A stretch of DNA of 50,809 nucleotides from a phage, in the sequence record NC_136442.1. One strand, 5' to 3'. The notes below the pieces were generated by a model. It was not told the DNA's origin. It saw only the letters and a program-made list of their open reading frames with translations, and did not search any database. Positions 1 through 34,880 of this stretch are shown here, one piece after another. Positions within the stretch are counted from its first letter, which is position 1; each line of letters starts with the position of its first letter. Made by a program: the position numbers and the translations under genes.

Positions 1-127
1 CGGCGGTATCACTATCGACTCTATCGCAGAGCTTGAGGATATTGACGGCAAAGGTACGAAAGGTTGCTTGGTTTACGAAAAAGATCCAATGAACATGAGC
101 ATTGAGATTCCAGAAGCGTTTAACATG
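1..127. repeat. terminal duplication, identical to 50683-50809 (circular closure or assembly overlap)
   Basis: Exact 127-nt identity between window start and end, read directly. Confidence 0.95.
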
Positions 128-247
128 CTTCCGGCGCAGCCAAAAGACCTGCATTTCAAGGTTCCTTGCACTTCCAAGTGTACTGGCCTTACGATTTATC
201 GTCCGTTTACGATGGTGCTCATTACCGGCTTGAAAAAAGCTGAGTAA
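1..247 (+). CDS. major capsid protein, C-terminal part (in-frame continuation of 49958..50809 across the junction; stop TAA 245-247)
   Basis: Frame continuity through the duplicated junction; position between head proteins and head-tail connector genes. Confidence 0.7.
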   Translation, partial: GGITIDSIAELEDIDGKGTKGCLVYEKDPMNMSIEIPEAFNMLPAQPKDLHFKVPCTSKCTGLTIYRPFTMVLITGLKKAE

Positions 248-258
248 TTAGATAACAT

Positions 259-287
259 GGGGAGCCTTAAGGGTTCCCCTTTTTTAT
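259..287 (+). terminator. intrinsic terminator after major capsid gene
   Basis: GGGGAGCC-TTAA-GGGTTCCCC hairpin followed by TTTTTTATTT. Confidence 0.7.
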
Positions 288-303
288 TTATGGAGTACAC
301 AAA

Positions 304-570
304 ATGAGCAAAAATTTAAAACTTAAAGTAACTGGCGTTTGCATGATTATTATGGACGGTAAGCGTTATCATCCTGGTGATGAAATTGAAATTGAATCTG
401 AACGCATTAATGATTCCGCAGTTGAATACCTGATCGCTCGCGGTGATGTGGAAGTTAAAGACAATTCCGAAATTAACGAGCAAATCAAGGCGAAAGCGGA
501 GAAGAAGCGCAAAAAAGATCCTACCGAGGGCAAGAGCCGCAAAGAGCTAGAGGACGGCGGCGAATATTAA
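304..570 (+). CDS. hypothetical protein (88 aa, lysine-rich C-terminus)
   Basis: ORF with GGAG RBS 8 nt upstream; located in head/neck module. Confidence 0.6.
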
Positions 571-616
571 TAATTGGGGCGCTTATGCGCCCTTTGTCAC
601 ATCTGGAGAAAACAAA

Positions 617-1036
617 ATGGTAGATGAATTTTACACAGACGCTGAAATCATGCAGCAAATCGTAAAGTTAGCGCCGCCAATGCAACAAGTTGATCCCGAT
701 TTAATTGTGGCATGGATTGAGCTTGCTAAAGAATTTGTTTGCAAAAAACGGTTTAAAAACTCATACCCGAAAGCGGTTGCGCTTTACACTCTTCACCTTA
801 TGACCTTAGACGGGGCAATGAAACAGGAAGGTGAAAGCGTAGAAAGCTATTCCCGCCGCGTTTCCTCGTTCACTCTGACTGGTGAGTTTAGTCAGACGTT
901 TGATCGAATTTCTTCCGATACAAGCGGAAAGCAGATCCGACAAACGCCGTGGGGCAAAATGTACGAAGTGTTAAACCGTAAGCACGGTGGCGGCTTTGGC
1001 CTTGTGACTGGATTGCGCCGGAGATGCTGCCGATGA
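617..1036 (+). CDS. head-tail connector protein (gp6-like adaptor)
   Basis: 139-aa ORF, GGAG RBS, size and position typical of siphovirus head-tail adaptor. Confidence 0.55.
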
Positions 1037-1404
1037 ACTACAATGAGATTGCAAGAATGGCTACTGCTGGGATTAAATTTTTCAGCGACGCTAACGGTAT
1101 GTTTAAGTGCATCACGCAGCAGGGAGGGGTTGAGATTATCGGCGGGGAGGAAGTTACCAAGCCGGAGATTTCAGTGATGATAAAGGGGCTTGTTAGATCT
1201 CCGAGGACTAGAGAGGTTGACGGTGAAACAATCCGAGTAACCGACAAGTTGGGGATATTCACCAATGAAACTGAGATCAAAAATGGTTATCAGATTGAAA
1301 TTGATGGCGAACGTTATGTTGTCGTTGAAGCAAGACCAGTCAGGCAGACTAACATCACGGCGGCTTATCGTCCGATATTAAGGAGGATTGCTGTGCATGG
1401 CTGA
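1033..1404 (+). CDS. putative head-tail joining / head closure protein
   Basis: ATGA start-stop overlap with upstream gene; neck module synteny. Confidence 0.5.
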
Positions 1405-1840
1405 TAATTATAAGATCAGGGAATTTCACGGTGATATAAGCAGGTGGATTGATTCAGTAAGCAGCGGCCTTGTTGATTGCGTTGAAATGTTCGCGACAAA
1501 CGTCCACGAGGATCTTGTAAATCGCTCGCCAGTTGATACGGGCCGATATAAAGCCAACTGGCAGATAACAGCAAACAAGCCGCCGCTATATGCGCTCAAC
1601 CAATACGATCGCGATGGTGGTAAAACCATTGCAGAAGGTAAGCGAGCAATATATGCAATCATGCGTGGCGGTGGCGCGGTGCGGTCAATCTATTTTTCAA
1701 ACATGCTCATTTACGCCAACGCGCTTGAATACGGGCATTCAAAACAAGCGCCGTCAGGCGTACTTGGAATCGTGGCGGTAAAGCTGCGATCTTATATGGC
1801 TAAGGCAATAAAGGATTCGAGGGCAAAAAATGCACTATGA
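1397..1840 (+). CDS. HK97 gp10-like neck/tail component
   Basis: C-terminal NMLIYANALEYGHS resembles the HK97 gp10 family signature; AGGAGG RBS upstream. Confidence 0.55.
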   Translation: MADNYKIREFHGDISRWIDSVSSGLVDCVEMFATNVHEDLVNRSPVDTGRYKANWQITANKPPLYALNQYDRDGGKTIAEGKRAIYAIMRGGGAVRSIYFSNMLIYANALEYGHSKQAPSGVLGIVAVKLRSYMAKAIKDSRAKNAL

Positions 1841-2231
1841 TTTAATGTTGGCGGCAAGAAAGGCGCTGGCGGCTGAATATGAATCACAATTTAAGATAGC
1901 CTATGAAAACGTTGATTTTGTGCCGCCTGGAGATGGTTCTATGTGGTTAAAATTTAACTACATGGAAGCAGACACGGATCGCATATCTCTTGATAGAAAA
2001 TGTGTTTCTTATATCGGTTTGGTTCAGGTTGGGATTGTTATTCCTCCTGGCGGTGGCACTGATAAAGCGCGTTTGCTGGCTAAAGAGATTGCGAGATTTT
2101 TCTATGATGGTAGAATGCTTGAAACTGGCTATATTAGCGAGGGGGCAAACGTCCACGCATTACTAAAAAGTGAAACAGGTTGGTTCTTGCCGATCCGTTT
2201 CAGTGTTAGGCTTGATACAAAGGAGGAATAA
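1830..2231 (+). CDS. putative tail terminator / tail completion protein
   Basis: 133-aa ORF immediately upstream of major tail gene; synteny. Confidence 0.5.
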   Translation: MHYDLMLAARKALAAEYESQFKIAYENVDFVPPGDGSMWLKFNYMEADTDRISLDRKCVSYIGLVQVGIVIPPGGGTDKARLLAKEIARFFYDGRMLETGYISEGANVHALLKSETGWFLPIRFSVRLDTKEE

Positions 2232-2233
2232 TC

Positions 2234-2896
2234 ATGCACTTGCCTAATGGTTCTCAAATTTTCATCGGCGTTAATATGGGTGATCCGATTCAGGCTACGG
2301 CTATTTCAAATGCTGATGATCCTGTTTTTACTACTGACAATACTCAAAATATTGAGAAGGGCGCTTATGTTCTTATTGAAACATCTTCCTGGGGAAAACT
2401 TGTTAGTCGAGTCCTTCGAGTAAAGGAAGTAACTAGCAATCAAAGTGTTACTCTTGAGGGTGTAAGCACGAAAGACACCAATGTGTTTCCTGCTGGTTCT
2501 AATACAGCAACCTTCCGAGAAGTAAAATCATGGGTAGAGATTCCTTGCGTACAGGATCTTGCGCAGGACGGCGGCGAGCAACAGTATTACACTTATCAGT
2601 GTTTGGCTGACGACCAGGAGCAGCAGTTACCGACCTATAAGAGCGCCGTTTCTCTTACCTACACTTTCGCGCATGAATATGATAATCCGATTTATCCGAT
2701 CTTACGCGAGGCTGAGGAATCCGGCGACGTAACCGCTTTGCGTATGTACGTTCCGAAAGCTAAAGAGATGCGTTGCTGGGCTGGCGTATTGTCTTTTAAT
2801 GACATTCCGCAAACCACTATGAACGAAATGGAAACTGTTTCCCTTTCCGTATCTCTGAAAGGTCGATTCACGTTCTTACCTTCTGACGTTAAGTAA
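2234..2896 (+). CDS. major tail protein
   Basis: Strong RBS AAGGAGGA, 220 aa, followed by strong terminator, immediately upstream of the G/GT chaperone and tape measure. Confidence 0.7.
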   Translation: MHLPNGSQIFIGVNMGDPIQATAISNADDPVFTTDNTQNIEKGAYVLIETSSWGKLVSRVLRVKEVTSNQSVTLEGVSTKDTNVFPAGSNTATFREVKSWVEIPCVQDLAQDGGEQQYYTYQCLADDQEQQLPTYKSAVSLTYTFAHEYDNPIYPILREAEESGDVTALRMYVPKAKEMRCWAGVLSFNDIPQTTMNEMETVSLSVSLKGRFTFLPSDVK

Positions 2897-13563: not shown

Positions 13564-13606
13564 ACTATACACGATCCGACAAGCGGCGTTTAGCAAAAAG
13601 TGCTAC
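13564..13606 (-). promoter_or_regulatory. motif-type promoter cassette (variant GTAGCACTTTTTGCTAAAC, 18-nt spacer, TATAGT) for the lipoprotein gene
   Basis: Motif, spacing and -10-like hexamer read on the minus strand. Confidence 0.55.
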
Positions 13607-13975
13607 TTGTTATTTTTTGTTTTTCGGCGTTATCGAATTTAAGGCGGCGTAAATTTAGCGCAAATTTTAGCCAACATAAGGGCAATAAACAATCAATAAA
13701 ATAGATATATACATATAAAATCAATAGTTTATTTATTTATGTATGTATATTTGTTTTTTCTTGTTATCTGTGTTTCTTGTGGTTTTGGTTGTTTGTGGTG
13801 ATTTTTCTTTCTGAGTATCTGTATGTGCCATCATTCATGTGTATGTATATAATCCGGCGTATCTGAGAGAACAAGGGAACAAGAAAAATAACACATATTA
13901 ATCATTGACTTACGTTTCAAATTTGTTTTATTGCAATCTAAGAACGTTTAGAAAACAGAAAAAACAAAACAGCTA

Positions 13976-14003
13976 TTGACTAAATCAACCAAATGGCTAC
14001 AAT
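13976..14003 (+). promoter_or_regulatory. sigma70-type promoter TTGACT-16-TACAAT driving the exonuclease-Erf-SSB module
   Basis: Near-consensus -35 and -10 at correct spacing, 30 nt upstream of the RBS/ATG at 14034. Confidence 0.65.
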
Positions 14004-19824: not shown

Positions 19825-19831
19825 CTTATCA

Positions 19832-20308: not shown

Positions 20309-20319
20309 CTAGTCACCTC

Positions 20320-20363: not shown

Positions 20364-20395
20364 ATACTCCAAATGGCATTTTTTAAAGGTTTAAG

Positions 20396-22393
20396 ATGAT
20401 TCCAAATATCGAAAAACAAATATCAGCGTTAGGCGAGGCAGTAATAAAAAGCATCCAAGAGCGATTCACTGTTGGCAATATAGTGCCTTATCCTTATCAG
20501 TGCGTTGCGTATGCCGAGATCGCAAAGCGCATGAAAAACTATGAGCATCCTTTCTTTGTTAAGGCTTCTGTGTCGGCTGGCAAAACATTGATGTTTGCGA
20601 TGGTTGCGGCGCAATGCCGCAAAATGGGATTGAAAATGATGGTCCTTGCTCGCCAGGCTGAAATTGTTGATCAGGATTCGGAAGAGATCAGCAATCTTGG
20701 CGTGCCAAACTCAATCTATTGCGCCGGACTGAAAACAAAAAGCGCATACTTTCCGATCGTAGTCGGTTCTGAGGGCACTGTAGTAAACGGATTGTTTAAG
20801 TCGTTAGGTGATTATGTTCCGCACGTTATCGGTATTGATGAATGTCACCAGGTGGATTGGGAGGATCTCGCTGATGCGATAGAAAATAATGAATCTTACC
20901 AGCAGATGACCACTAAGAAGGATTTGCCTGTACTGATTGGAGAAGAACAGCAATTTGATTCCAATGGCGATCCAATGTTCGGAACAGGGCGCACACAGTA
21001 CACCGTAATAATCATGGAAATGATGCGCAGGTGTCGCGAGGCATACGGGCACGAATTGCGAATATTCGGTATGACTGGATCTGAGTTTCGCGGCGTGGTT
21101 CCAATACTGGTTGAAGATAAGAACAAAAAGGGATTCTGGCGTGAGCAGGTGACTAACATAGACACAAACTACTTAATCAAATTTGGTTCGGTAGTGCCAA
21201 CAAATTTCGGCGACGTAGGCGACCTGGGGTATGACCTTTCAGAGTTCGAAGCCAGTAGCGAGGATGGCGTTTCAGACTTTGACGCTAAAACATTGCGCAA
21301 GATGGAAGAAAAAATCCATCAAGACGCAACAATGACACAGAAAATCATGGCTAAAGTCCATGAGATATGCAAAGACAGGAACGGAGTTTTAGTTACATGC
21401 GCAGGGGAAAGGCACTGCAAGGAGGCCGCCGCCGCACTGCCTCCAGGCGTTGAATACAGGATCATAACTGGCAAGACTGGAGACAATCAGCGTAAAGAGT
21501 GGCTGAGGGAGGCATACGATGGAAAAGTAAAATACATCTTCCAGGTACAGGCGCTTACCACTGGCGTTAACGTTCCGTTTTGGGATACTTCGGTAATACT
21601 GAGAAAGATAGGATCTCTAACATTGCTTATCCAGCTTTTGGGGCGCGGTATGCGACTGCTTAAGCAATGGCACATTGAGCAGGGATTCAAGAAAAAAGAC
21701 CATCTTGTATTGGATTTTGCCGGTACTATGGATGAGTTAGGGGATTTGTATTTCGATCCAATCCTTGAGCAAGCGCAATTCCAAAAGAGATTTACAAACG
21801 GGAAAGAGCCTAAGACTTGTCCGATATGTGGAACGCTAAACAGCTTTTACGCTCGCCGATGTATGCACGTAGACGATAACGGGAAGAGATGCGAGCATTT
21901 TTGGACTTACAGAATTTGCGAGGACCAGGTAGATCCGAGAACGAAAAAGATAATCAAGCGCGGTTGCGGAACAAAAAACGACGTAGTGGCGAGAGTATGC
22001 CGTTGTTGCGATATTTCTCTTGTCGATCCTAACGAGAAGTTAAGCGGCAAGCACTACACCAAAAACGATTGGTGCAACGTTAAATCTTTCCGCGTTGATA
22101 TGACGAAAAACCAGAAAGGAATTGTTTTTTGCTATGAGCTTGAGGCCAACGGCGACACGTTCAAGGCATACGAAAGATTTTTCCCTGAGTCAGAAAGCAA
22201 CATTTGCCGGACGATATGGAGAAAAATAGCATTGCAGCACATACCGGATCGCAAGATTGCTGGTATGGTGGCGAGCTATAGAAATGCGCGTAAAATAATG
22301 TCATACGCTCATCACATCATGCCTCCTGTACGCGTAACGCATCGCAAAAACGGCAAAGGTGAGGATAACATTGCAAAACGGGAGTTTGTTTAA
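20396..22393 (+). CDS. superfamily 2 DNA helicase (DECH box) with C-terminal Cys-rich zinc-finger region
   Basis: Walker A-like SAGKT, motif II GIDECHQ, motif VI QLLGRGMR, CxxC pairs in C-terminus. Confidence 0.75.
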   Translation: MIPNIEKQISALGEAVIKSIQERFTVGNIVPYPYQCVAYAEIAKRMKNYEHPFFVKASVSAGKTLMFAMVAAQCRKMGLKMMVLARQAEIVDQDSEEISNLGVPNSIYCAGLKTKSAYFPIVVGSEGTVVNGLFKSLGDYVPHVIGIDECHQVDWEDLADAIENNESYQQMTTKKDLPVLIGEEQQFDSNGDPMFGTGRTQYTVIIMEMMRRCREAYGHELRIFGMTGSEFRGVVPILVEDKNKKGFWREQVTNIDTNYLIKFGSVVPTNFGDVGDLGYDLSEFEASSEDGVSDFDAKTLRKMEEKIHQDATMTQKIMAKVHEICKDRNGVLVTCAGERHCKEAAAALPPGVEYRIITGKTGDNQRKEWLREAYDGKVKYIFQVQALTTGVNVPFWDTSVILRKIGSLTLLIQLLGRGMRLLKQWHIEQGFKKKDHLVLDFAGTMDELGDLYFDPILEQAQFQKRFTNGKEPKTCPICGTLNSFYARRCMHVDDNGKRCEHFWTYRICEDQVDPRTKKIIKRGCGTKNDVVARVCRCCDISLVDPNEKLSGKHYTKNDWCNVKSFRVDMTKNQKGIVFCYELEANGDTFKAYERFFPESESNICRTIWRKIALQHIPDRKIAGMVASYRNARKIMSYAHHIMPPVRVTHRKNGKGEDNIAKREFV

Positions 22394-27140: not shown

Positions 27141-27331
27141 TCCATACGCTTTACCGTAACCAGTAATACACCATCATCATTGCATAAAACATGTTCAGTG
27201 GTGCTAAAAGCGCGCATATCTGAATAAAGTAGCGTAAGTAAAGCATGAATAAAATCCTCATGTGATATTGAATTTACGGCGCAGTGCTTCAAGATCTTGT
27301 CTATTAGCTTTTGCCTGGAACAATTCATCAT
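27137..27331 (-). CDS. hypothetical protein (64 aa)
   Basis: AGGGGAG RBS 7 nt upstream; stop TAG embedded in motif as for many early genes; overlaps 3' end of the upstream ORF. Confidence 0.45.
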   Translation of the reverse strand: MMNCSRQKLIDKILKHCAVNSISHEDFIHALLTLLYSDMRAFSTTEHVLCNDDGVLLVTVKRME

Positions 27332-27653
27332 CGCCCATCTCCCCTATTCTCGCCATATCCCTGATCCAGTCGTTGCGCATACCATCCAGGCTATACAATT
27401 CGAATCCGAAAGGCCGCTTTGACGATCCTTTGGACCAGTATTTTCCGCAGACCCCATCTATATAACCAGCCGTCATCATTCTTGCGCAAAATTCCTTAGA
27501 TGCAAGGCTGGCGAACATTCGCGGCGTAAGTCCGGCGGCCCTTGCGAGCCGCTCACATTCTCTATGCTGATAGATAAATTTGGCTATGTGCTGCCTGTTA
27601 AACCAGTCGTATGACTCACACCATTTATACAGATCAAGCAAAAACATAATCAT
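27258..27653 (-). CDS. hypothetical protein (131 aa)
   Basis: ATGA start-stop coupling with upstream ATPase gene. Confidence 0.55.
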   Translation of the reverse strand: MIMFLLDLYKWCESYDWFNRQHIAKFIYQHRECERLARAAGLTPRMFASLASKEFCARMMTAGYIDGVCGKYWSKGSSKRPFGFELYSLDGMRNDWIRDMARIGEMGDDELFQAKANRQDLEALRRKFNIT

Positions 27654-29230
27654 CCCAGCAGTATTGGATTGACAAAAATAACACCATTAATAACACAAAC
27701 ATAATTTCTTTCTTCCAGCATTGGCAGCAAGTGCCCTTCTATCCTCTTCATTACGCCAGCTTGACCAACGAAAGGTTTTACCTTTCTCGCTGATTCGTAC
27801 AGGGCGCGAATATTCAGAATCCCTTTATTAGCCTTGCCGTGTCTAGTGATCAATTCAATCAATTTGCCCATTTCAGCATCATCACCAGCATAACCAGAAG
27901 CATTGGCGGCGCTAATGTATGTTTTGCTCAATTCCTGAAACATGATCAGCGCCTCTTGCATTGTTTCCACGTCGATCTCTTTCGACTTCTGCGGGTATCC
28001 GGCAGGATTAAACCAGTTGCGGATAACATGCAGGACGGAAGCAAGCCTGATCACCTGTTTATCCATTTTACCCAGCGCACCGCGTAACATTGTATGAGAA
28101 TACTTTCCGCCGTCTGCAAGATGCGGTTCCATATCCTGGCGAGCAATGTTGAGCACTCGCATAGCTGAACGGCTTATTTTCAGCGATATATTTGATTCGC
28201 TCATGATGTTATGCACCAATTGATAATATTGGGCCTTCAATTCAGGATCCACCGCCTCATAGGTAGAATCACCATTTTCATCAATGAATGAGCGACGGCC
28301 TAAGAATGATTCCTCACGGACCAACAAAAAGCGCTCACTCACACCGATACCGCGCGATCCAGCGTCCATGATTCCGCTTATCGTTTCATCCTGGGCTATA
28401 ACGCTCATACATCCAAGCGCGCGAAAACTCATGTTATTGTCAGCATTAGCACGGGCAATTGATACGTGACCATTATCCCACGCCTTAAGCACTAGCTCGC
28501 TGTTAGTCTTCCTTTCGCTATTGGCATAGGTCAAGCCTAACAGGCTGTTAATACTTGTTGCTTCGTCAGATATTACGGCAAAGTTACCTTGCTTGTTGTT
28601 GATTTTCGCCAAGCCTTCTGGAGTGGTATCTGAAACAGGGAAAGTTATATCACACATCTTTTCCAGCTTCTCCTCCAGATCCTCTTTTTCCTGGTATAGA
28701 GATTCCATATCAGCGCCTGATCTTTCGCTTTTCATCTCCTTTGCAAGACCTGCCAACTTTGCCTGTATTTTCTTTCTTTCCTTGCGGCGTTGCTCGTTGA
28801 TCTTCTCAACTTCCGCAATCATCGGAGCAATAGCCATACTGTTGATCGCAGATTTACCAGTTGACGGCGGCTGGCTTGTAACGACGTAAAGCGCAGTCGG
28901 CTGATCGGTTCCGTGATAGTCAACTGTAAAGCGTCCAAGCATAGCGGCAGAAATGCAGCCGATAAAGTGCATGTAAGCCGATGATTCAGGGAATTGAACT
29001 GATCGCGCAATGCTGCGTGATAACTTGCCGACAACATCAATATCATTACCAAGAGAAATAACGGGGTAGCGATCGTGACCGCTATTTACATCCTTCACGT
29101 CGCCCCAAAAGCTGGACGACTGGCGATAGCCGTTAGCCTGAATTGATACGCGAACTGGTGAAAGGTTCTGGCTTTCAGCCATAGCGATTATTTGCTGTGG
29201 AGTTAATTTGTTCGTTTCTAATGAAAACAT
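27650..29230 (-). CDS. P-loop NTPase, putative replication helicase/primase-associated ATPase (DUF3987-like)
   Basis: Walker A-like SQPPSTGKS, 526 aa, AAGGAG RBS. Confidence 0.55.
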   Translation of the reverse strand: MFSLETNKLTPQQIIAMAESQNLSPVRVSIQANGYRQSSSFWGDVKDVNSGHDRYPVISLGNDIDVVGKLSRSIARSVQFPESSAYMHFIGCISAAMLGRFTVDYHGTDQPTALYVVTSQPPSTGKSAINSMAIAPMIAEVEKINEQRRKERKKIQAKLAGLAKEMKSERSGADMESLYQEKEDLEEKLEKMCDITFPVSDTTPEGLAKINNKQGNFAVISDEATSINSLLGLTYANSERKTNSELVLKAWDNGHVSIARANADNNMSFRALGCMSVIAQDETISGIMDAGSRGIGVSERFLLVREESFLGRRSFIDENGDSTYEAVDPELKAQYYQLVHNIMSESNISLKISRSAMRVLNIARQDMEPHLADGGKYSHTMLRGALGKMDKQVIRLASVLHVIRNWFNPAGYPQKSKEIDVETMQEALIMFQELSKTYISAANASGYAGDDAEMGKLIELITRHGKANKGILNIRALYESARKVKPFVGQAGVMKRIEGHLLPMLEERNYVCVINGVIFVNPILLG

Positions 29231-29258
29231 TCGTTAGCTTCTCCTTTGTGGGCCGTAA

Positions 29259-29302
29259 ATTTTAACGGCCCAATACTACCCCGTTTTGTCAAAAAGTGCT
29301 AT
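29259..29302 (-). promoter_or_regulatory. motif-type promoter cassette (variant ATAGCACTTTTTGACAAAAC, 18 nt, TAAAAT)
   Basis: Read on minus strand. Confidence 0.6.
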
Positions 29303-29520
29303 TTGATCCGCTCTATTGCAACCAGAAGTCGATCAGGCTGGCGGTCGCTGTAGCATTCTCCTGTAATCCCATCCTTAAACGTAAAGTAAAGCGCCTTATG
29401 ATATGAAAAACCAATCAGCCAACCTACCGCCGTTTTTTTGATGGGCCTGACTATATCGCCAGGCTTGAAAGTCTTTGTGGTAGAATGCGTTACTTTGTAA
29501 CGGTTTTCACTGTTTATCAC
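29299..29520 (-). CDS. hypothetical protein (73 aa, GTG start)
   Basis: GTGA overlap with upstream stop; GAGGGT RBS. Confidence 0.45.
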   Translation of the reverse strand: MINSENRYKVTHSTTKTFKPGDIVRPIKKTAVGWLIGFSYHKALYFTFKDGITGECYSDRQPDRLLVAIERIK

Positions 29521-29903
29521 AGATATTTACCCTCAAAAAGATAACAGCCGCCAGCAGAGAATCCGACCTCTTCACGGTACAGGTTCCAGCGATCGCCGCA
29601 CTCATCAAAAACATAACCCGCAACGCTTCCAAGCGGTCGCCCTTTCTCGATCTGGTATCGCTTGCCCTGCTTAAAGTGCTTTTTGCACGGCATGTTATGA
29701 TCTACAAACGTGCAAAGAACGGTTTTTGTGTTAATGGCGCGGTAATCATCTCGGTTTGCTGGAAGCCAGCGGCTACCCTTAACAAGCGTCTTAACCTGGA
29801 ACTCTTCCACCTCGATCACATCATCACTTCCTGCAATCTTCTGATAAACCGTTTTAAAACGGCCTTTCATCAATACGTTGGTTTCATTACAGACAACATT
29901 CAT
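29517..29903 (-). CDS. hypothetical protein (128 aa, Cys/His-containing)
   Basis: AAGGAG RBS; first gene after motif cassette. Confidence 0.6.
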   Translation of the reverse strand: MNVVCNETNVLMKGRFKTVYQKIAGSDDVIEVEEFQVKTLVKGSRWLPANRDDYRAINTKTVLCTFVDHNMPCKKHFKQGKRYQIEKGRPLGSVAGYVFDECGDRWNLYREEVGFSAGGCYLFEGKYL

Positions 29904-29932
29904 GATCAGATCTCCTTTGTTTGTTCGATGTG

Positions 29933-29976
29933 ATTATGCCAGGTTTTTACACCTGGCTTTTAACAAAAAGTGCTAT
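29933..29976 (-). promoter_or_regulatory. motif-type promoter cassette (motif, hairpin CCAGGTGTAAAAACCTGG, CATAAT)
   Basis: Read on minus strand. Confidence 0.6.
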
Positions 29977-30689
29977 TTTGAGTTTGACTCAAAGACGGCG
30001 CGAGCAAATCCGCGCGGAGTGAGGGAGCGGATCATCTTTGTGCGCGATGACTTACCGCCAGTTTTGGCCCAGCCTGGATTATCTTTGTCTTCCTCTTTCG
30101 GCAGGATTAAAGCGCGCGGAGGAATAACAAAGCCGTTGCCAGTCCAGAGGCACGTTTTCTTAAAATAGCGATCCCGTGCCGGAATAATATCAGGGAAGTC
30201 GGGATGTTTATCATCTTCCGGCAGATAGCCAGCGTAATCGCACGGATGGAACGTATAATCAGGCTTACGCCATAACGTTGACAACTTGCCAACCGGATTT
30301 TCGATCATGTAAGGAACACCGAAATAATCAGCTATATCAGCCGCAATTCTGCAAGTGTCGGCGGCCTCATCCTGGAATGATGGATTCTCAAGGCGTTTTT
30401 TGGCCCAATGGCGAGATCCGCTATTTGCAAGGTCGGTGCATGGTGGGAAGGCCATAATAAAATCAGGATTGCCCCACTCATTATTGATTGCCTTAACATA
30501 AAAAGCATCATCAATCCAGACGTTAACGTATTCGATATTCTCATGCTGTATGCGCACTGACTGGTAATCACCGTGATCGCCGCCGTCAGCATTAAAGCAA
30601 ATGCACTTATAGCCATTATCAGCCCAATCTTTAACGGCTTTACCAGATCCATCAAATAGGGAGAATATTAAACCTTTATACATCGTCAT
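29973..30689 (-). CDS. putative DNA (cytosine-5)-methyltransferase-like protein
   Basis: LFDGSG (motif I-like), PPC (motif IV-like), ENPVG (motif VI-like) in canonical order; alternative start at 30683. Confidence 0.45.
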   Translation of the reverse strand: MTMYKGLIFSLFDGSGKAVKDWADNGYKCICFNADGGDHGDYQSVRIQHENIEYVNVWIDDAFYVKAINNEWGNPDFIMAFPPCTDLANSGSRHWAKKRLENPSFQDEAADTCRIAADIADYFGVPYMIENPVGKLSTLWRKPDYTFHPCDYAGYLPEDDKHPDFPDIIPARDRYFKKTCLWTGNGFVIPPRALILPKEEDKDNPGWAKTGGKSSRTKMIRSLTPRGFARAVFESNSK

Positions 30690-30693
30690 TACC

Positions 30694-30918
30694 TCAAAAC
30701 GGAAAACAGCGCGCACAACCAGGATCGAAATCGCATCCACAATCATTAACAATCATAGTGGGATCTGCAAATATTGCGCTTGACTCAAGATCCATATCCA
30801 TATCACCTAAAGCCTCATCAAGAGTCTTAATTTTATATGCCACTTCAAGCGCCGCCTCTTTATTTAGTCCGGCATCTTCTGCCATTTGAAGGCGCTCAAA
30901 AAAACCATCTTGACTCAT
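30694..30918 (-). CDS. hypothetical acidic protein with C-terminal CGCDFDPGCARC motif
   Basis: 74-aa ORF, TGA/ATG coupling with upstream mini-gene. Confidence 0.5.
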   Translation of the reverse strand: MSQDGFFERLQMAEDAGLNKEAALEVAYKIKTLDEALGDMDMDLESSAIFADPTMIVNDCGCDFDPGCARCFPF

Positions 30919-31031
30919 CGCATAATCCCCTTAATAACAGCCAAGATAATAGCCAGGCCAGCAGCAGTAACCAAAAATCCAACCGCGCCAATAATCGAAT
31001 AAAAAAAGAAATCAATAGCTTTATCTATCAT
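30915..31031 (-). CDS. small hydrophobic membrane peptide (38 aa)
   Basis: MIDKAIDFFFYSIIGAVGFLVTAAGLAIILAVIKGIMR; GAGGTGG RBS; ATGA coupling to downstream gene; below ORF-track cutoff. Confidence 0.45.
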   Translation of the reverse strand: MIDKAIDFFFYSIIGAVGFLVTAAGLAIILAVIKGIMR

Positions 31032-31072
31032 TTTCCACCTCATTTAAAAGGCGGCAAACGCCGCCAGATTAA

Positions 31073-31300
31073 TTAAAGAGCGCGCCAACTTTGAATATAG
31101 AAAGCGTTTTCTTCCAGTAATTCTTTTACCTGATCTTTATTGTATTTGCGCACCTTGCCGCCTGGATGGATACCAATAAGATAGCCGCCTTTGCCCTCGG
31201 TAATAGTGATTTGGCTAATTCCGCAGGACTTATCAAGTTTTACAGCCACGCGGTGATGAGCGTCAATAGTTGCCATAATGTTTAAAACTTTTGCTTTCAT
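31073..31300 (-). CDS. hypothetical protein (75 aa)
   Basis: GAGGA RBS. Confidence 0.55.
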   Translation of the reverse strand: MKAKVLNIMATIDAHHRVAVKLDKSCGISQITITEGKGGYLIGIHPGGKVRKYNKDQVKELLEENAFYIQSWRAL

Positions 31301-31455
31301 TTAAATATCCTCAATTGAAATATGAATGACGTGGCGCTCTTTTTCCGTCGCCGCCGTAATGGTCATTTGCAACCGCCACCATCCAGGCATTTTTGAATAT
31401 AAAAAGCCTCATTTCTTATTTTTCAGCTTAAATTTATGAAATGGAATACCCGCCA

Positions 31456-31737
31456 TTATACGATCCCAGTTACGTTAAAACTTACAGCCTTTGTTGCGCT
31501 AAATACATAAGCATCAACAGCGCCGCCAAATACACGAATTTTACCCTGGCCGTACTGCGCATTCATATTTCGCCAAACCGTTCTATTAGAGCAGAATGCG
31601 CTACCAGTCTTAATAAGCGTATCCATCTCTTTTCTTAGATCGCGATAGTCCAGCCAGAATCTAAAGGCACGCTGTTTAATTCGCGCCGCCTTGATTTTTT
31701 CTCTTGCGCTATTGAAATCATTCTTTTCGTATGCCAT
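31456..31737 (-). CDS. hypothetical protein (93 aa)
   Basis: TAATG overlap with upstream gene. Confidence 0.5.
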   Translation of the reverse strand: MAYEKNDFNSAREKIKAARIKQRAFRFWLDYRDLRKEMDTLIKTGSAFCSNRTVWRNMNAQYGQGKIRVFGGAVDAYVFSATKAVSFNVTGIV

Positions 31738-31934
31738 TAAATGATCTCCATGTATGTTTCAAAGCCATTTAACTTGAACAGGCCGTTTTCACATTTGCGC
31801 ACGTTCCAAGTTAGCCCTGAGTGGTACGCCTCCATATCATCAAGGTCAATGGTGATTTCAGCACCTTTCTTAAACAAACCTTTTTCGTGAGACTTGTCGC
31901 GCTTAACAACTTTAACATCAACCTGATTTTCCAT
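31737..31934 (-). CDS. hypothetical protein (65 aa)
   Basis: Start MENQVDV follows cassette leader ...CATCGACAACAAGCGAGGATTTAAAG. Confidence 0.55.
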   Translation of the reverse strand: MENQVDVKVVKRDKSHEKGLFKKGAEITIDLDDMEAYHSGLTWNVRKCENGLFKLNGFETYMEII

Positions 31935-31965
31935 CTTTAAATCCTCGCTTGTTGTCGATGGGTGT

Positions 31966-32009
31966 AATATACCATTCAGGCGCACATCGTTTTTAACAAA
32001 AAGTGCTAT
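31966..32009 (-). promoter_or_regulatory. motif-type promoter cassette (motif with extra A, TATATT)
   Basis: Read on minus strand. Confidence 0.6.
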
Positions 32010-32296
32010 TCAACAACTTTTCCAGTTAAAGAGATAAGTTGCCTTGTGATCTTGTGGCGGCGATACTTACGCGCAACAACCGGAAGGTTTTCACCGCTTT
32101 GATGACCAAAGCAGATCGGCAATTCACCTTCAAGGGAGCGGAAGCCACCAAATTCAAGATCCCGCACTGGCTTAGCGCGCCAGGCTTCAATAAATCCGCG
32201 CTCGTCACGAGTGATATAGCGGTATATATTTGGGAGGGGCAATTGTATCCCCTCAAAATCAACTGTGTCGGTGTAGCTGTAAAACTTAGAACTCAT
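32006..32296 (-). CDS. hypothetical protein (96 aa from ATG 32296; frame open further upstream)
   Basis: GGAG RBS before ATG 32296; stop TAG embedded in motif. Confidence 0.5.
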   Translation of the reverse strand: MSSKFYSYTDTVDFEGIQLPLPNIYRYITRDERGFIEAWRAKPVRDLEFGGFRSLEGELPICFGHQSGENLPVVARKYRRHKITRQLISLTGKVVE

Positions 32297-32471
32297 AGTC
32301 AACAACTCCAAACTCGTTAACGATTTGCGCCTTGTAGAATCCGCCATTTTTCGCAAGGTTGTAGCAAGCGGCTACGGTTTCAAATTCGCGCGCTTCCGGC
32401 TGGCTGTTTTCGTGTTCCCAGGTAATCAGAGTAACCATTTTCAAATCCTCGCATTCGTTGTCGATGCGTGT

Positions 32472-32515
32472 AATGTACAGGAATACGAGGATTGAGTTTT
32501 AACAAAAAGTGCTAT
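32472..32515 (-). promoter_or_regulatory. motif-type promoter cassette (consensus motif, 18 nt, TACATT)
   Basis: Read on minus strand; leader ACACGCATCGACAACGAA. Confidence 0.6.
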
Positions 32516-32779
32516 TTAGTCCAGGAATTCGATTTCACGCTCTCCAGTTAACGGATCCACAAGCCAGAATCCGAGCGGTTCGCCGTGAACACCGCCATAG
32601 AATCCAAGCGCCGTCAGATCTTCACCTTTAACGAATACCAGATTCCCGCTACGGCTTACGTGAGACACGTTAACGATAACCGGAAATGTGCGATCCTTAA
32701 ATGCAGGCCGCAGGGCGTAACATCCGTTGTTGAGCAAACGTGCTTTGCGCTTAACTGGAATAGGTGCATTAATTTTCAT
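32516..32779 (-). CDS. hypothetical protein (87 aa)
   Basis: GGAG RBS; stop adjacent to motif. Confidence 0.55.
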   Translation of the reverse strand: MKINAPIPVKRKARLLNNGCYALRPAFKDRTFPVIVNVSHVSRSGNLVFVKGEDLTALGFYGGVHGEPLGFWLVDPLTGEREIEFLD

Positions 32780-32791
32780 GGTTATTACTCC

Positions 32792-33004
32792 TTATCGTAA
32801 AGATTTAAAGACGTATAGTTTACTGCGGTAACTATATATCCGCATTGTTATTTCTCGCAGTGCAATATATTCCTTCCTGTTTTCCGGCAGACTGGCGAGC
32901 AACAACAGGCAGTATTTATAAGCGCGGTCAAGATTCCTTTCCGTGCCCCTGCAATATCCCTTGTTGCGCCTGGAGCGGTACAGCCATAACAATTTCTTGA
33001 ACAT
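32792..33004 (-). CDS. hypothetical basic protein (70 aa); coding status uncertain
   Basis: ATG 2 nt after upstream stop; arginine-rich, weak RBS. Confidence 0.3.
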   Translation of the reverse strand: MFKKLLWLYRSRRNKGYCRGTERNLDRAYKYCLLLLASLPENRKEYIALREITMRIYSYRSKLYVFKSLR

Positions 33005-33005
33005 T

Positions 33006-33215
33006 TCAGATACGCCCATATAGATCACAGACTTCGTTGATAAAACAGCGTTGAGACTCTTTATCCTGCTTCTCAAACATCGCACGGCACTCATAGCGGT
33101 GATTATGTACGATGACAACAACCATATTTTCAGGTGCTGACGGGTTACGCGCGGAAGCGTCGCAGATTGAAACATCCATACCCATCTCATGTGCTTTCTT
33201 GATCACATCCAACAT
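33006..33215 (-). CDS. hypothetical protein (69 aa)
   Basis: AGGAG RBS 9 nt upstream of ATG 33215. Confidence 0.5.
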   Translation of the reverse strand: MLDVIKKAHEMGMDVSICDASARNPSAPENMVVVIVHNHRYECRAMFEKQDKESQRCFINEVCDLYGRI

Positions 33216-33469
33216 TTTTTCTTCTCCTGCAATAAGCAAACATCATTGATAAAATCAGCACGGCCCTTAATGTTGCTGATGTGGAACGTCTTTTCAGCGT
33301 ACAGGCCATCACCTTCAATCACGATCATTACGCGAGTCGGTTTATTTACGGGCGCACACGAAAAGAGTGGTCGCGCCGGAAGAAATTTAGTAGCCACATC
33401 CAGGTTAGCCCTGGCGGCCCTGCAAAACGCCTCCGCCAGATCCAAATCATTTTCGGTAATCACCGCCAT
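33203..33469 (-). CDS. hypothetical protein (88 aa)
   Basis: TAATG coupling with upstream gene. Confidence 0.5.
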   Translation of the reverse strand: MAVITENDLDLAEAFCRAARANLDVATKFLPARPLFSCAPVNKPTRVMIVIEGDGLYAEKTFHISNIKGRADFINDVCLLQEKKKCWM

Positions 33470-33741
33470 TACTTCTTGATCTCCTCACTGATAAATTTCA
33501 GCACCTGACGCAAGAAAACCTCGTTGTTGATAGTCGCTGGCAATTCTTCTTTCACTTCTTGCGGCAGATAGATATTGCCGTGCCAGGTCAAGCAATCGTA
33601 GTTGATACGATAAGAGCAAAGCCACTCGCAATCGTTATCTGCTTCCCAAATGCAGAGTTGCAGAACATCGCCAAAATCTTCAACAGTCAGATCCAGACCG
33701 TGACGCTTAGCGAAATTGAAAGTGGTTTTGCTGATGTTCAT
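33469..33741 (-). CDS. hypothetical protein (90 aa), first gene of the leftward early block
   Basis: Follows motif cassette; AGGAGA RBS. Confidence 0.6.
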   Translation of the reverse strand: MNISKTTFNFAKRHGLDLTVEDFGDVLQLCIWEADNDCEWLCSYRINYDCLTWHGNIYLPQEVKEELPATINNEVFLRQVLKFISEEIKK

Positions 33742-33775
33742 TGCTATCTCCTGAGCGGTTCGTTTCGATGTGTGT

Positions 33776-33819
33776 AATGTACCCGATCAGGTGGCCTGAG
33801 TTTTAACAAAAAGTGCTAT
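33776..33819 (-). promoter_or_regulatory. motif-type promoter cassette (consensus motif, 18 nt, TACATT)
   Basis: Read on minus strand; leader ACACACATCGAAACGAAC. Confidence 0.6.
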
Positions 33820-33850
33820 TTGACGGTTAGAGCCAGGATTGTGATCGAAA

Positions 33851-33938
33851 TAATCAGAAGTAATCATTCGTAATCAAATCACGTCAAAATGATGATTGCC
33901 TTTGCAAATTTGATGAGAAAAGTAATCACGTTTAATCA
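33851..33938. repeat. five TAATCA direct repeats phased at 10-bp intervals (33851, 33861, 33871, 33923, 33933)
   Basis: Read directly; helical phasing in a non-coding divergent region. Confidence 0.8.
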
Positions 33939-34358
33939 TTGGTTGCAGGGGAGATAGTGAAACATTCCCCTCTTGCCTCACTTTTCCGCCTGGCTGTCAG
34001 TGGTTGTTATGTTCCGTTCCCGCCTGTTCTTTTGTTGACCTTCCGCAAAATACGATAACAAAAAATAACAAACAATACCTATATAATACATTGAAAAATA
34101 AGGATTATTTATTTATATGTATCTATATATTCTCTTTTGTTATCTTGGTTATTGTGGTATTTGGTGGGGGTATATAGTTTTTGTGTATCTATATGTGTGT
34201 ATGGGTATGTAAGGGCATATATATCTATATGGCACTTTCCGCGAGAAAACTTCGATAACAATCAATGATAACATTGATTTATAAGGAAAAATAACGCCTA
34301 TATTGTTATTGTGCCACCATATAAAATTGATAAAACACGCGGGAACAAGAAAAAACAG

Positions 34359-34387
34359 TTGACACATTAAATAGCATTATTGATAAT
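34359..34387 (+). promoter_or_regulatory. consensus sigma70-type promoter TTGACA-17-GATAAT for the rightward early block
   Basis: Perfect -35, 17-nt spacer, -10 GATAAT, followed by AGGAGG RBS and ATG 34416. Confidence 0.7.
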
Positions 34388-34415
34388 GCCGACACCTAAC
34401 AACCAGGAGGCAGAA

Positions 34416-34880
34416 ATGAGCGAGCAATCATTCACTGACACGCTGCGCCGTGCAGCTATTATGCTGGCTAATGGCGAGGAAGAGACGATTAAGATTCCTG
34501 ACGCGTATTTGCAGGTCCACATGTTCGGCAAGAAGTCGGCAAGCAATCCGGCGGCCTACATTCGCCAGATCATGAGTCGAGTGCCAGAAGTCGCCGAGCG
34601 GGGGCGCGTATCCGTTACCCGTGGCGTTTACGGGCCGGAAGATGAAAACTTCGGTAGCACTTTCTACGAGGTGCGCATTGTTGAAGGCCGTCGCAAGGTT
34701 TACAACAAAGAGGCACTGGAAAGGGCAGTACGCCAGGCTAAGCGCAAAGTTGCAGAGGCGATCATTGATATGTCACCCAACCTGGCAAACTATGCGCCGG
34801 AAGAGTATGAAACATTATCAAAGGCCGTCGCTGACTTTCACGCGATGATCAAAAAAACTTTCCTGGAGGATGAGCAATGA
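34416..34880 (+). CDS. hypothetical protein (154 aa), first rightward early gene
   Basis: AGGAGG RBS 6 nt upstream; immediately downstream of the consensus promoter. Confidence 0.65.
   Translation: MSEQSFTDTLRRAAIMLANGEEETIKIPDAYLQVHMFGKKSASNPAAYIRQIMSRVPEVAERGRVSVTRGVYGPEDENFGSTFYEVRIVEGRRKVYNKEALERAVRQAKRKVAEAIIDMSPNLANYAPEEYETLSKAVADFHAMIKKTFLEDEQ

What the first reader, a model, noticed from the sequence alone, without database searches (positions are those of the whole stretch)
34040..34415. AT-rich structured element with consensus sigma70 promoter: copy B, paralogous to 13690-14005
Region 34060-34370 and region 13690-13960 share blocks in the same order: TTTATTTATTTAT(G/A)TAT, TTCTTGTT/TCTTGGTT, GGTTTTGGTTGTTTGTGGTG versus GGTTATTGTGGTATTTGGTGGGGG, GTGTATGTATATAAT versus GTGTGTATGGGTATGTAAGGG, and (C/A)GGGAACAAGAAAAA. 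Each ends in a near-consensus sigma70 promoter (TTGACA-17-GATAAT at 34359; TTGACT-16-TACAAT at 13976) driving a rightward gene block. Both contain alternating purine-pyrimidine TG/TA tracts. These look like duplicated immediate-early control regions that host RNAP can use unaided, in contrast to the motif cassettes. The AT-rich phased tracts could also be DNA unwinding elements of an origin.
Basis: partly seen in the sequence, partly recalled or inferred. Interest (0 to 1): 0.65.

Follow-up and report, generated by a model that had tools for sequence, protein, structure and literature searches.

The report
Paired AT-rich control regions, T1-like phage
This T1-like coliphage carries two related ~350-base non-coding stretches, each the easiest-to-melt DNA in the genome and each ending in a conserved host-type promoter; the same pair occurs in T1, TLS and the other relatives examined, has not been described in the papers I could search, and is a candidate for the still-unknown replication origins of these phages.

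Summary
Regions 13610-14003 (A) and 34001-34387 (B) are significantly alike, with local alignment z = 19 against dinucleotide shuffles and 6-7 against shuffles that keep local composition. The window is a Drexlerviridae (Tempevirinae) coliphage. Both regions lie between a leftward "21-nt direct repeat" promoter cassette and a rightward sigma70 promoter. These two promoters are the counterparts of P51 and P01, two of only three sigma70 promoters predicted in phage TLS.

The A/B pair is present in T1, TLS and every relative examined, with one shared module order. That order has inverted arrays of short AACA/TGTT-core repeats, two small GC islands, a TATA-rich core, IHF-consensus sites and a T/G-only block. 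The cores are the two least stable duplex segments of the 50.8 kb. No conserved ORF, Rfam family or covarying RNA structure was found. Helical phasing of A-tracts is not supported.

Best reading (0.42): origin-like unwinding and repeat modules set between divergent promoters and coupled to early transcription. Main rival (0.35): upstream transcriptional control only. No experiment exists for either. The probable pac site is a separate array at 33851-33938.

The parts
34001..34358 (+). Element B, an AT-rich non-coding module. Order of parts: TGTT array (34005-34036); GC island CTTCCGC (34040-34046); GATAACA/ATAACA array (34054-34077); TATA core; TTTTGTTATC (34135-34144); T/G-only block (34145-34232); second GC island TTTCCGCG (34236-34243); direct repeats GATAACA-N6-GATAACA (34254-34273); A-rich AACA cluster next to -35 (34332-34358).
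   Evidence: Sequence. Repeats. Module alignment with 18 relatives. Orientation map. AACAR motifs on both strands number 11, against 2.6 +/- 1.5 in dinucleotide shuffles.
34079..34138 (.). Least stable core of B (TATATAATACATTGAAAAATAAGGATTATTTATTTATATGTATCTATATAT). It contains a perfect TATAAT at 34082-34087 with no -35.
   Evidence: Nearest-neighbour stability z = 4.4, second least stable 60-mer of the 50.8 kb. TATAAT occurs at this module in 14 of 24 non-redundant elements.
34359..34387 (+). Sigma70 promoter B, TTGACA-17-GATAAT. It drives the DUF7174 gene (ATG at 34416) and the rightward block of small genes that leads to the terminase.
   Evidence: 11/12 matches. Conserved in 13 of 14 B-type regions of relatives. 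Counterpart of TLS P01.
13610..13975 (+). Element A, the paralogous module. Order of parts: TGTT motifs (13609-13634); GGCGGCGTAAAT (13643-13654); AACA motifs (13674-13693); TATA core; TTTTTTCTTGTTATCTGTGTTTC (13754-13776); T/G-only block (13777-13812); TGTATGTATATAAT; CCGGCG (13854-13859); GAGAACAAGGGAACAAGAAAAATAACA (13867-13893); AATCATTGACTTA (13900-13912); GAAAACAGAAAAAACAAAACAG (13951-13972).
   Evidence: AACAR motifs number 12, against 3.9 +/- 1.8 in shuffles. Present at 80% or more coverage in 83 phage records.
13691..13750 (.). Least stable core of A. It includes a perfect IHF consensus, AATCAATAGTTTA, at 13719-13731.
   Evidence: z = 4.7, the least stable 60-mer of the window. The IHF consensus sits at a position conserved among relatives: 16 perfect sites in 24 elements against 1.8 +/- 1.3 in shuffles.
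13976..14003 (+). Sigma70 promoter A, TTGACT-16-TACAAT. It drives exonuclease VIII, Erf and SSB (14034-16575).
   Evidence: Counterpart of TLS P51.
33801..33821 (-). Leftward 21-nt direct-repeat cassette that forms the left boundary of region B. Its -10 hexamer TACATT is at 33776-33781.
   Evidence: Matches the TLS consensus aaATAGCACnnnTTGnTAAAA.
13589..13609 (-). Leftward 21-nt direct-repeat cassette that forms the left boundary of region A. Its -10 hexamer is TATAGT.
33851..33938 (+). Neighbour of the element, not part of it. Five TAATCA copies at exact 10-bp phasing (33851, 33861, 33871; 33923, 33933). This is the probable pac (terminase-binding) array.
   Evidence: The T1 and TLS records start at their mapped pac ends, inside the matching TGATT/AATCA arrays of the orthologous intergenic region.
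34416..34880 (+). First gene after promoter B. It encodes a DUF7174 (PF23796) protein of 154 aa.

Best explanation
A and B are two ancient paralogous copies of a cis-acting nucleoprotein module that T1, TLS and every other relative examined also keep. Each copy sits between two promoters that fire away from it: a leftward direct-repeat cassette promoter and a rightward near-consensus sigma70 promoter. Its centre is a TATA-rich, strand-asymmetric stretch that is the easiest DNA in the genome to melt. That centre is bracketed by inverted arrays of short AACA/TGTT-core repeats spaced 8-13 bp apart, by two small GC islands about 200 bp apart, and in most relatives by two IHF-consensus sites.

Proposed mechanism (inferred):
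1. Host RNA polymerase uses the sigma70 promoters as soon as the DNA enters the cell.
2. Divergent transcription loads the region between the promoters with negative supercoils (twin-domain model).
3. The core then opens.
4. Proteins bound to the repeats, helped by IHF bending, recruit the phage primase and helicases.

On this reading the modules serve as replication-initiation zones, either two origins or an origin plus a helper region as in SPP1 oriL/oriR or P4 ori/crr. They are also the upstream regions of the two main early operons.

Shown here: the paralogy, conservation across the relatives examined, promoter conservation, lowest duplex stability, repeat enrichment and orientation pattern, and the absence of coding or RNA signal. 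Inferred: unwinding in vivo, protein binding and origin activity.
For: - Paralogy is significant in every genome tested: window z 6.0, TLS 6.9, T1 5.8, five others 4.4-13.
- One module order is shared by 19 non-redundant Tempevirinae A- and B-type elements.
- The two cores are the least stable segments of the window at 60, 100 and 200 bp.
- AACAR density is highest in the window at A and B: 11 and 10 per 350 bp against 2.8 +/- 1.8. It is 3-4 times the dinucleotide-shuffle expectation.
- Relatives have clearer short tandem repeats at the same module: T1 has GATTAACAC three times at a 9-bp period, and TLS has GTGAACACGTGAACAG.
- The IHF consensus is enriched at two fixed positions.
- The third sigma70 promoter region (20308-20396) works from an 88-bp spacer without any such element, so the element is not a generic promoter accessory (TLS P57).
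- Both promoters are near consensus and need no activator on sequence grounds.
- The phage encodes a primase, two helicases, SSB, Erf and exoVIII but no polymerase, and no origin is known. [quoted passage not shown]
- Precedents exist. SPP1 has two origins of similar organisation, direct repeats plus an AT-rich unwinding element (PMC6316719). P4 ori and crr carry TGTTCACC/GGTGAACAG repeats in both orientations (NC_001609 annotation). The T1 primase is annotated as similar to P4-family alpha primases.
Against: - There is no experimental evidence of any kind.
- The repeats are short (5-8 nt core) and degenerate, not 17-22 bp iterons.
- No DnaA boxes were found.
- B in this window has no perfect IHF site.
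- No initiator was identified. The P4 alpha origin-binding domain has no detectable homologue here, and the alpha-to-primase similarity is weak (E 0.06). The DUF7174 winged-helix call is weak.
- The AT-rich core lies upstream of the sigma70 promoter, unlike T7-type origins.
- GC skew switches coincide with changes in transcription direction, so they are uninformative.
- AT-rich, repeat-bearing upstream regions also occur at purely regulatory sites.
Confidence: 0.42

Rival explanations
1. Transcriptional control only. The modules are extended upstream regions of the two main early promoters. They would combine a UP-like A-tract, IHF-mediated bending or transfer of supercoil-induced destabilisation to the -10 region (as at ilvPG), and arrays of operator-like sites. 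A phage regulator, such as the Cro/YdaS-like HTH protein at 19832-20308 or DUF7174, would boost early transcription or shut it off in step with the switch to the direct-repeat cassette promoters. There would be no role in replication.
For: - The modules abut the conserved promoters with almost no indels between the last repeat cluster and -35. An IHF consensus is fixed at -77 from -35 in many relatives, and an A-rich AACA cluster occupies the UP-element position.
- The same architecture at both early operons suggests co-regulation.
- TLS has only three sigma70 promoters, so the early-to-middle switch must act on them.
- The phage encodes an HTH regulator.
Against: - Conserved modules extend to about -400, far beyond usual promoter-proximal control.
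- Both promoters are near consensus.
- The third sigma70 promoter lacks the element.
- No repeats overlap the -35/-10 core where repressors usually act.
- A strongly strand-asymmetric T/G block and the genome's two stability minima are not needed for regulation.
Confidence: 0.35
2. Packaging or recombination element. The AT-rich module is part of an extended pac or terminase-assembly region, or a recombination hot spot used for concatemer formation.
For: B lies about 100 bp to the right of the probable pac array, and T1 and TLS genome ends map in the same intergenic region. A lies directly upstream of the exoVIII/Erf recombination genes.
Against: - A has the same architecture but no TAATCA/TGATT array and lies 20 kb from pac.
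- The pac-like array is a distinct and better conserved segment. The 33900-34028 left flank, which spans only the right-hand part of the array (33923-33938), occurs in 60 records, whereas the B core occurs in 15.
- Chi is not enriched: one site in the window, none in the elements.
Confidence: 0.07
3. It encodes something: a small protein (as some GenBank records annotate) or a structured non-coding RNA.
For: An ORF of 72 aa lies on the minus strand at 34149-34367. The phage MikeNSara record annotates three small CDS across the region. An internal TATAAT is present in 14 of 24 elements.
Against: - ORFs of 40 aa or more differ in strand, frame and position among the 24 elements, and their translations are low-complexity.
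- Curated records such as the BASEL phage PeterMerian annotate none.
- There is no Rfam hit above chance.
- RNAalifold gives only -8.5 kcal/mol, and its pairs are the invariant TGTT/AACA cores, with few compensatory changes and many broken pairs.
- No conserved -35 exists for an internal promoter.
Confidence: 0.04
4. No specific function. The regions would be AT-rich spacers between divergent operons, alike only because of an old duplication and shared mutational bias.
For: Sequence identity between distant copies is low, near the roughly 60% baseline of the global alignments. B is hypervariable among close relatives.
Against: - Module order, motif orientation, GC islands and strand asymmetry persist from T1 to Tempevirinae despite sequence turnover.
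- About 350 bp occurs twice in a genome that is more than 90% coding.
- Copies within one genome stay as alike as, or more alike than, orthologous and cross-type pairs between distant genomes.
Confidence: 0.06

Closest known systems
Phage TLS predicted promoters P01 and P51 (PMC11447400, Supplementary Table S1)
   Same: They occupy orthologous positions, upstream of gp01 (DUF7174) and gp51 (exoVIII), with the same hexamers (TTGACG-17-GATAAT and TTGACT-16-TATAAT). TLS has both AT-rich modules upstream of them.
   Different: That paper lists only the promoter hexamers. [quoted passage not shown]
Bacillus phage SPP1 oriL / oriR
   Same: A pac-type siphovirus of similar size with two distant origins of similar organisation: direct repeats plus an AT-rich unwinding element. 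AT-rich islands mark both origins and transcriptional control regions (PMC6316719).
   Different: SPP1 repeats are bound by a known initiator (gp38), and oriL lies inside its gene. Here no initiator is known, the repeats are shorter and occur in inverted arrays, and both copies are intergenic. There is no sequence relationship.
Satellite phage P4 ori and crr (type 1 repeats TGTTCACC)
   Same: Two distant cis regions carry the same short repeat in both orientations at about one-turn spacing. The repeat core GTGAACA(G) also occurs in the arrays of TLS and several relatives. The phage primase belongs to the same broad Zn-ribbon primase class.
   Different: The window's own repeats read GATAACA/GGAACAAG, not GTGAACA. 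The P4 alpha C-terminal origin-binding domain and SF3 helicase have no detectable counterpart. P4 crr is a 120-bp tandem duplication.
Phage T7 origins (promoters 1.1A/1.1B, phiOL, phiOR followed by AT-rich DNA). From established knowledge, not tested here.
   Same: Several paralogous 'promoter plus AT-rich' units in a virulent coliphage with linear, terminally redundant DNA.
   Different: In T7 the promoter reads into the AT-rich region. Here the conserved promoters on both sides read away from it.
E. coli ilvPG upstream activating region with IHF, and rrnB P1 UP/Fis region. From established knowledge, not tested here.
   Same: An AT-rich, supercoil-destabilised region with an IHF site upstream of a sigma70 promoter, and an A-rich tract at -40 to -60.
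   Different: Those regions span about 150-200 bp and lack inverted repeat arrays, GC islands and a T/G-only block.

Membership tests
Sigma70 (host RNA polymerase) promoter | -35 TTGACA and -10 TATAAT hexamers 16-18 bp apart | tested here: met
   34359-34387 has 11/12 matches and 13976-14003 has 10/12.
Sigma70 (host RNA polymerase) promoter | Placed upstream of a gene with a ribosome-binding site and conserved among relatives | tested here: met
   All but two of the 43 exoVIII-upstream loci, and 13 of 14 B-type regions, keep the hexamers at a fixed distance from the start codon.
Sigma70 (host RNA polymerase) promoter | Transcription start mapped early in infection and sensitive to rifampicin | not testable with these tools
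   No transcript data for Drexlerviridae were found.
Iteron-type replication origin (lambda, SPP1, plasmid class) | AT-rich unwinding element of minimal duplex stability | tested here: met
   The two least stable segments of the window at three window sizes, z 4.0-4.7.
Iteron-type replication origin (lambda, SPP1, plasmid class) | Three or more direct repeats of about 17-22 bp at helical spacing | tested here: not met
   Only 5-8 nt AACA-core motifs 8-13 bp apart, in direct and inverted arrays. The clearest tandem case is T1 B, with three 9-bp units.
Iteron-type replication origin (lambda, SPP1, plasmid class) | Host-factor sites (DnaA boxes, IHF) | tested here: inconclusive
   No TTWTNCACA box in either window element and only one in 24 elements (B_L070). 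The IHF consensus is enriched and positionally conserved in relatives and in A, but absent from B of this window.
Iteron-type replication origin (lambda, SPP1, plasmid class) | Bound by a cognate initiator and supports replication | not testable with these tools
   The candidates (DUF7174, the Cro-like HTH protein, the helicases) are only conjectural.
P4 ori/crr system | Type 1 repeat TGTTCACC in two cis regions | tested here: inconclusive
   The P4 repeats were verified. The GTGAACA(G) core is present in TLS and in loci L055, L061 and L062, but the window has GATAACA/GGAACAAG.
P4 ori/crr system | Alpha-type primase-helicase with a C-terminal origin-binding domain | tested here: not met
   Only a weak match of the primase domain (23% identity, E 0.06) and no match to alpha residues 400-777. 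The helicases are SF2 and DUF3987.
T7-type origin | Promoter transcribing into an adjacent AT-rich region | tested here: not met
   Both conserved promoters point away from the core. An internal TATAAT without a -35 occurs in 14 of 24 elements.
Structured RNA gene | Match to a known family, or covariation that supports a fold | tested here: not met
   No Rfam hit above chance. The alifold result is weak and shows almost no compensatory change.
Protein-coding gene | ORF conserved in frame and position among relatives | tested here: not met
pac site | Position of the mapped genome end and phased terminase-type repeats | tested here: not met
   These features belong to the neighbouring array at 33851-33938, not to the AT-rich element. 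A has none.

The most novel reading that the evidence does not exclude
T1-like phages replicate from a pair of paralogous origins embedded in divergent promoter regions. In this reading, twin-domain supercoiling from host-polymerase early transcription opens the TATA core. A phage protein that recognises the AACA-core repeats then loads the primase and helicase. One candidate is the fast-evolving, winged-helix-like DUF7174 product encoded immediately downstream of B, which is exchanged together with the B variant. The second copy (A) would act as a second origin or a crr/oriR-like helper or fork barrier. This would identify the long-unknown T1 origin and give DUF7174 a function.
Probability: 0.25. 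Interest if true: 0.68.

Novelty: new variant of a known kind. Interest (0 to 1): 0.55.

Why it matters
T1 is one of the seven classic T phages, yet its replication origin and the control of its early transcription are still unknown. The 2024 TLS re-annotation found only three sigma70 promoters, found no lambda-type origin repeats, and named the function of the intergenic repeats as an open question. Two of those three promoters carry a conserved, duplicated, repeat-bearing unwinding module. That gives concrete ~350-bp targets for origin mapping, promoter dissection and protein-binding tests in a phage family widely used in phage therapy and defence-system studies. It also shows that the small 'hypothetical proteins' annotated across these regions in several GenBank records are probably spurious.

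Tried and rejected
- Rfam search of both regions: only chance hits.
- RNAalifold on 19 elements: -8.5 kcal/mol, and the pairs are the invariant TGTT/AACA cores with few compensatory changes and many broken pairs. A structured RNA or cruciform is rejected.
- ORF conservation: none.
- A-tract helical phasing: not above background.
- DnaA boxes: none in either window element and one in 24 elements.
- Chi sites: one in the window and none in the elements, so the idea that the T/G block is Chi-like was dropped.
- Search for the elements in 5,426 E. coli genomes and 72,556 plasmids, looking for satellites or plasmids borrowing an origin: no match.
- Lineage-specific repeat variant as evidence for a co-evolving protein: weakened. 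The variants GATAACA, GTTAACA, GTCAACA and GTGAACA differ among B elements of near-identical phages, while the A repeats stay GTGAACAA-like.
- P4 alpha origin-binding domain homologue: not found.
- Literature searches for Drexlerviridae transcriptomes, T1 early promoters or a T1 origin: nothing usable.
- GC skew: its switches coincide with gene orientation, so it cannot locate an origin.

Full report
IDENTITY OF THE WINDOW

Megablast of both regions hits only T1-like coliphages of the family Drexlerviridae, subfamily Tempevirinae, including Warwickvirus and Hanrivervirus members, at 94-99% identity. The gene content fits:
- tail genes up to 12340;
- leftward membrane-associated and Cor-like (superinfection-exclusion) genes at 12368-13538;
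- rightward exonuclease VIII, Erf and SSB at 14034-16575;
- leftward tail fibre, primase and a Cro-like regulator at 16608-20308;
- a rightward SF2 helicase;
- a leftward block at 27258-33741 that includes a DUF3987 helicase;
- a long rightward block of small genes from 34416 leading to the terminase near 43500.

Region A (13540-14034) and region B (33741-34416) are therefore the two large divergent intergenic regions of the genome.

THE OBSERVATION

The A/B similarity is real:
- blastn gives 63% identity over 370 bp, E 2e-17.
- The local alignment scores 53, against 13.8 +/- 2.0 for dinucleotide shuffles and 23.3 +/- 4.0 for 30-bp block shuffles that keep local composition.
- With the promoters removed, z is still 6.0.

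Alternating purine-pyrimidine runs are enriched in A, which holds 4 of the window's 17 runs of 11 or more. One such run lies in B. Helical phasing of A-tracts is not above background.

WHAT SURROUNDS THE ELEMENTS

Their form is AATAGCACTTTTTGTTAAAAC, about 18 nt of spacer, then a -10-like hexamer. This is the published 21-nt direct repeat of phage TLS, consensus aaATAGCACnnnTTGnTAAAA, whose function is unknown (PMC11447400). One leftward cassette bounds each region, at 13589-13609 and at 33801-33821.

The TLS paper found only three intergenic sigma70-like promoters: P01, P51 and P57 (Supplementary Table S1). P51 precedes exoVIII and P01 precedes the first gene of the genome. They are the counterparts of the A and B promoters.

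The T1 and TLS GenBank records both begin inside the intergenic region orthologous to B. TLS numbering starts at the experimentally mapped pac cut, and the T1 record annotates 1..2800 as the terminal repeat. In both, the start lies in an array of TGATT/AATCA repeats. The window has the equivalent: TAATCA at 33851, 33861, 33871, 33923 and 33933, all on one strand at exact 10-bp phasing. The probable pac site is therefore a separate segment about 100 bp left of the AT-rich element.

CONSERVATION

Forty-three exoVIII-upstream loci and thirteen B-type loci were collected from IMG/VR, together with the T1 and TLS records. Two of the thirteen B-type loci (L066, L071) carried extra leftward genes upstream and were left out. 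All of the remaining loci have an AT-rich element in front of a conserved promoter:
- TTGAC(T/A)-16-TAnAAT for the A type;
- TTGAC(A/G/T)-16/17 plus a -10 hexamer, nATAAT in most, for the B type.

The T1 B promoter is weaker (TTGACA-16-TAACAC).

A MAFFT alignment of 19 non-redundant Tempevirinae elements of both types shows one module order:
1. two or three TGTT motifs;
2. CCGGCG(T/C)AAAT;
3. two AACA motifs;
4. cTATAATA;
5. an IHF-consensus AATCAATAAGTTA;
6. TTATATATGTATCTAT;
7. TTTTGTTnnC..TGTT;
8. a variable block made almost only of T and G on the gene-sense strand;
9. TGTATATAT;
10. a second CCGGCG(T/C)AAAT, about 200 bp from the first;
11. two or three AACA-core direct repeats 8-13 bp apart (GTGAACAAGGGAACA...);
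12. a second IHF consensus, AAATCAAnnACTTA, at -77 from -35;
13. TTTTGTT;
14. GAACAGAAAAAACA, then -35.

Perfect IHF consensus sites number 16 in 24 elements, against 1.8 +/- 1.3 in shuffles, and fall at two fixed positions. A of this window has one, at 13719-13731. B has none.

AACAR density over the window peaks at A and B and is three to four times the shuffle expectation.

A and B are significantly alike within every genome tested: TLS z 6.9, T1 z 5.8, and five others z 4.4-13. T1-A and T1-B resemble each other more than either resembles the other-type element of the window (z 2.0 and 2.5). This points to shared constraints or to exchange between the copies.

B is hypervariable. The window's B core occurs in only 15 records, while its left flank occurs in 60. 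Otherwise near-identical phages carry different B variants together with different versions of the first downstream gene.

WHAT THE ELEMENT IS NOT

- ORFs of 40 aa or more are not conserved in strand, frame or position. The small CDS annotated in some records are therefore probably spurious.
- Rfam gives only chance hits.
- RNAalifold yields -8.5 kcal/mol. Its pairs are just the invariant TGTT/AACA cores, with few compensatory changes and many broken pairs. That pattern fits a repeated protein-binding motif rather than a fold.
- Only the main promoter is a conserved sigma70 match. An internal perfect TATAAT (B: 34082-34087) is present in 14 of 24 elements but has no -35.
- No DnaA boxes and no Chi enrichment.
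- No copies in E. coli genomes or plasmids.

PHYSICAL PROPERTY

With nearest-neighbour energies, 13691-13750 and 34079-34138 are the two least stable 60-mers of the 50.8 kb. The same two loci rank first and second at 100 and 200 bp (z 4.0-4.7).

MECHANISM

Two readings fit the data, and they are not exclusive.

(a) Origin-like module. The phage has a primase, two helicases, SSB and recombination proteins but no polymerase, and no origin is known. A ~350-bp conserved non-coding unit occurs twice in a compact genome, with the genome's melting minima flanked by short repeat arrays and IHF sites. It sits between promoters that fire away from it, so transcription would drive negative supercoils into it. 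All of this is what an initiation zone would look like.

Two-copy precedents exist. SPP1 oriL and oriR have similar organisation, direct repeats plus an AT-rich unwinding element (PMC6316719). P4 ori and crr carry repeats whose core, GGTGAACAG, is verified in the P4 record and also appears in the arrays of TLS and several relatives. The T1 primase is annotated as alpha-like.

The third sigma70 promoter does without the element. This argues that the element is not simply a promoter accessory.

(b) Transcription control only. The modules are colinear with the promoters. They have an A-rich UP-like tract and a fixed IHF site, and they could hold operators for the Cro/YdaS-like regulator or for DUF7174.

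I rate (a) 0.42 and (b) 0.35. Packaging or recombination, coding or RNA, and no function together make up the rest.

The weaknesses of (a) are plain:
- The repeats are short and degenerate.
- The window's own repeats (GATAACA, GGAACAAG) differ from P4's.
- No initiator is identified.
- The P4 alpha origin-binding domain has no counterpart.

COMPARISON WITH WHAT IS KNOWN, AND NOVELTY

The promoters themselves are already predicted for TLS. I found no description of the paralogous upstream modules, their conservation across the relatives examined, their internal architecture or their status as stability minima in the papers I could search. [quoted passage not shown]

I therefore class the finding as a new variant of a known kind: an AT-rich, repeat-bearing control or origin region. 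It is of moderate interest and is directly testable.

Noticed in passing
window 33851-33938: Five TAATCA copies on one strand at exact 10-bp phasing (33851, 33861, 33871; 33923, 33933). This is the probable pac or small-terminase binding array. The T1 and TLS genome records start inside the matching TGATT/AATCA arrays, and several GenBank and IMG records of relatives begin or end within a few hundred bp of this spot.
   Followed up: partly
window, 17 sites, e.g. 22806, 23877, 29292, 29966, 31999, 32505, 35131, 35594, 36809, 38042, 40846: These are the published TLS 21-nt direct repeat, here AATAGCACTTTTTGTTAAAAC. Each copy is followed about 18 nt later by a -10-like hexamer and has no -35. Several copies have a GC-rich inverted repeat in the spacer, for example GCCAGGCGCAAAGCCTGGC after 35131. 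This looks like an activator-dependent middle or late promoter class, comparable to T4 MotA-box promoters. Its function is still called unknown in the literature.
   Followed up: partly
window 34416-34880 (+): DUF7174 (PF23796) is the first gene after promoter B in the Tempevirinae relatives examined. It evolves fast and is exchanged together with the B-element variant between otherwise near-identical phages. The AlphaFold model (pLDDT 84) has a winged-helix-like N-terminal topology with invariant Y48, R50 and R55 in the putative recognition helix, two long C-terminal helices and an acidic tail. There are no significant structural relatives.
   Followed up: partly
window 20308-20396: The third divergent region is only 88 bp. 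It packs a rightward direct-repeat cassette (ATAGCATTTTTTGTTAAAAC at 20321-20340) for the SF2 helicase gene and a leftward sigma70-like promoter (TTTAAA-17-TATAAT by eye, the counterpart of TLS P57) for the Cro-like regulator and primase operon. It has no AT-rich module.
   Followed up: partly
window 19832-19854: The Cro/YdaS-like HTH regulator gene (19832-20308, minus strand) overlaps the listed GTG-start primase ORF (18847-19854) by 23 nt. This suggests translational coupling of a DNA-binding protein with the primase.
   Followed up: no
L001 (OR896827.1, phage MikeNSara) 1475-1968, equivalent to window 33874-34367: Three small 'hypothetical protein' CDS are annotated across the pac-like array and the AT-rich element in some GenBank records. 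ORFs within the AT-rich element are not conserved among relatives, so these are probably annotation artefacts.
   Followed up: yes
search hits MG065640, MG065641, MG065643, MG065649, MG065680, MG065681, MG065687: Records named 'Campylobacter phage' (47-50 kb, host C. jejuni) match both elements at about 70% identity over 69-94% of the query, like Tempevirinae coliphages. They look like T1-like phages deposited under a Campylobacter label.
   Followed up: no
window 33948-33970: An imperfect hairpin, GGGGA-N13-TCCCC, lies between the pac-like array and the AT-rich element. It is partly conserved in relatives (GGAGGGGATAGAGAAACGCGGTCCTC). Its role is unknown.
   Followed up: no
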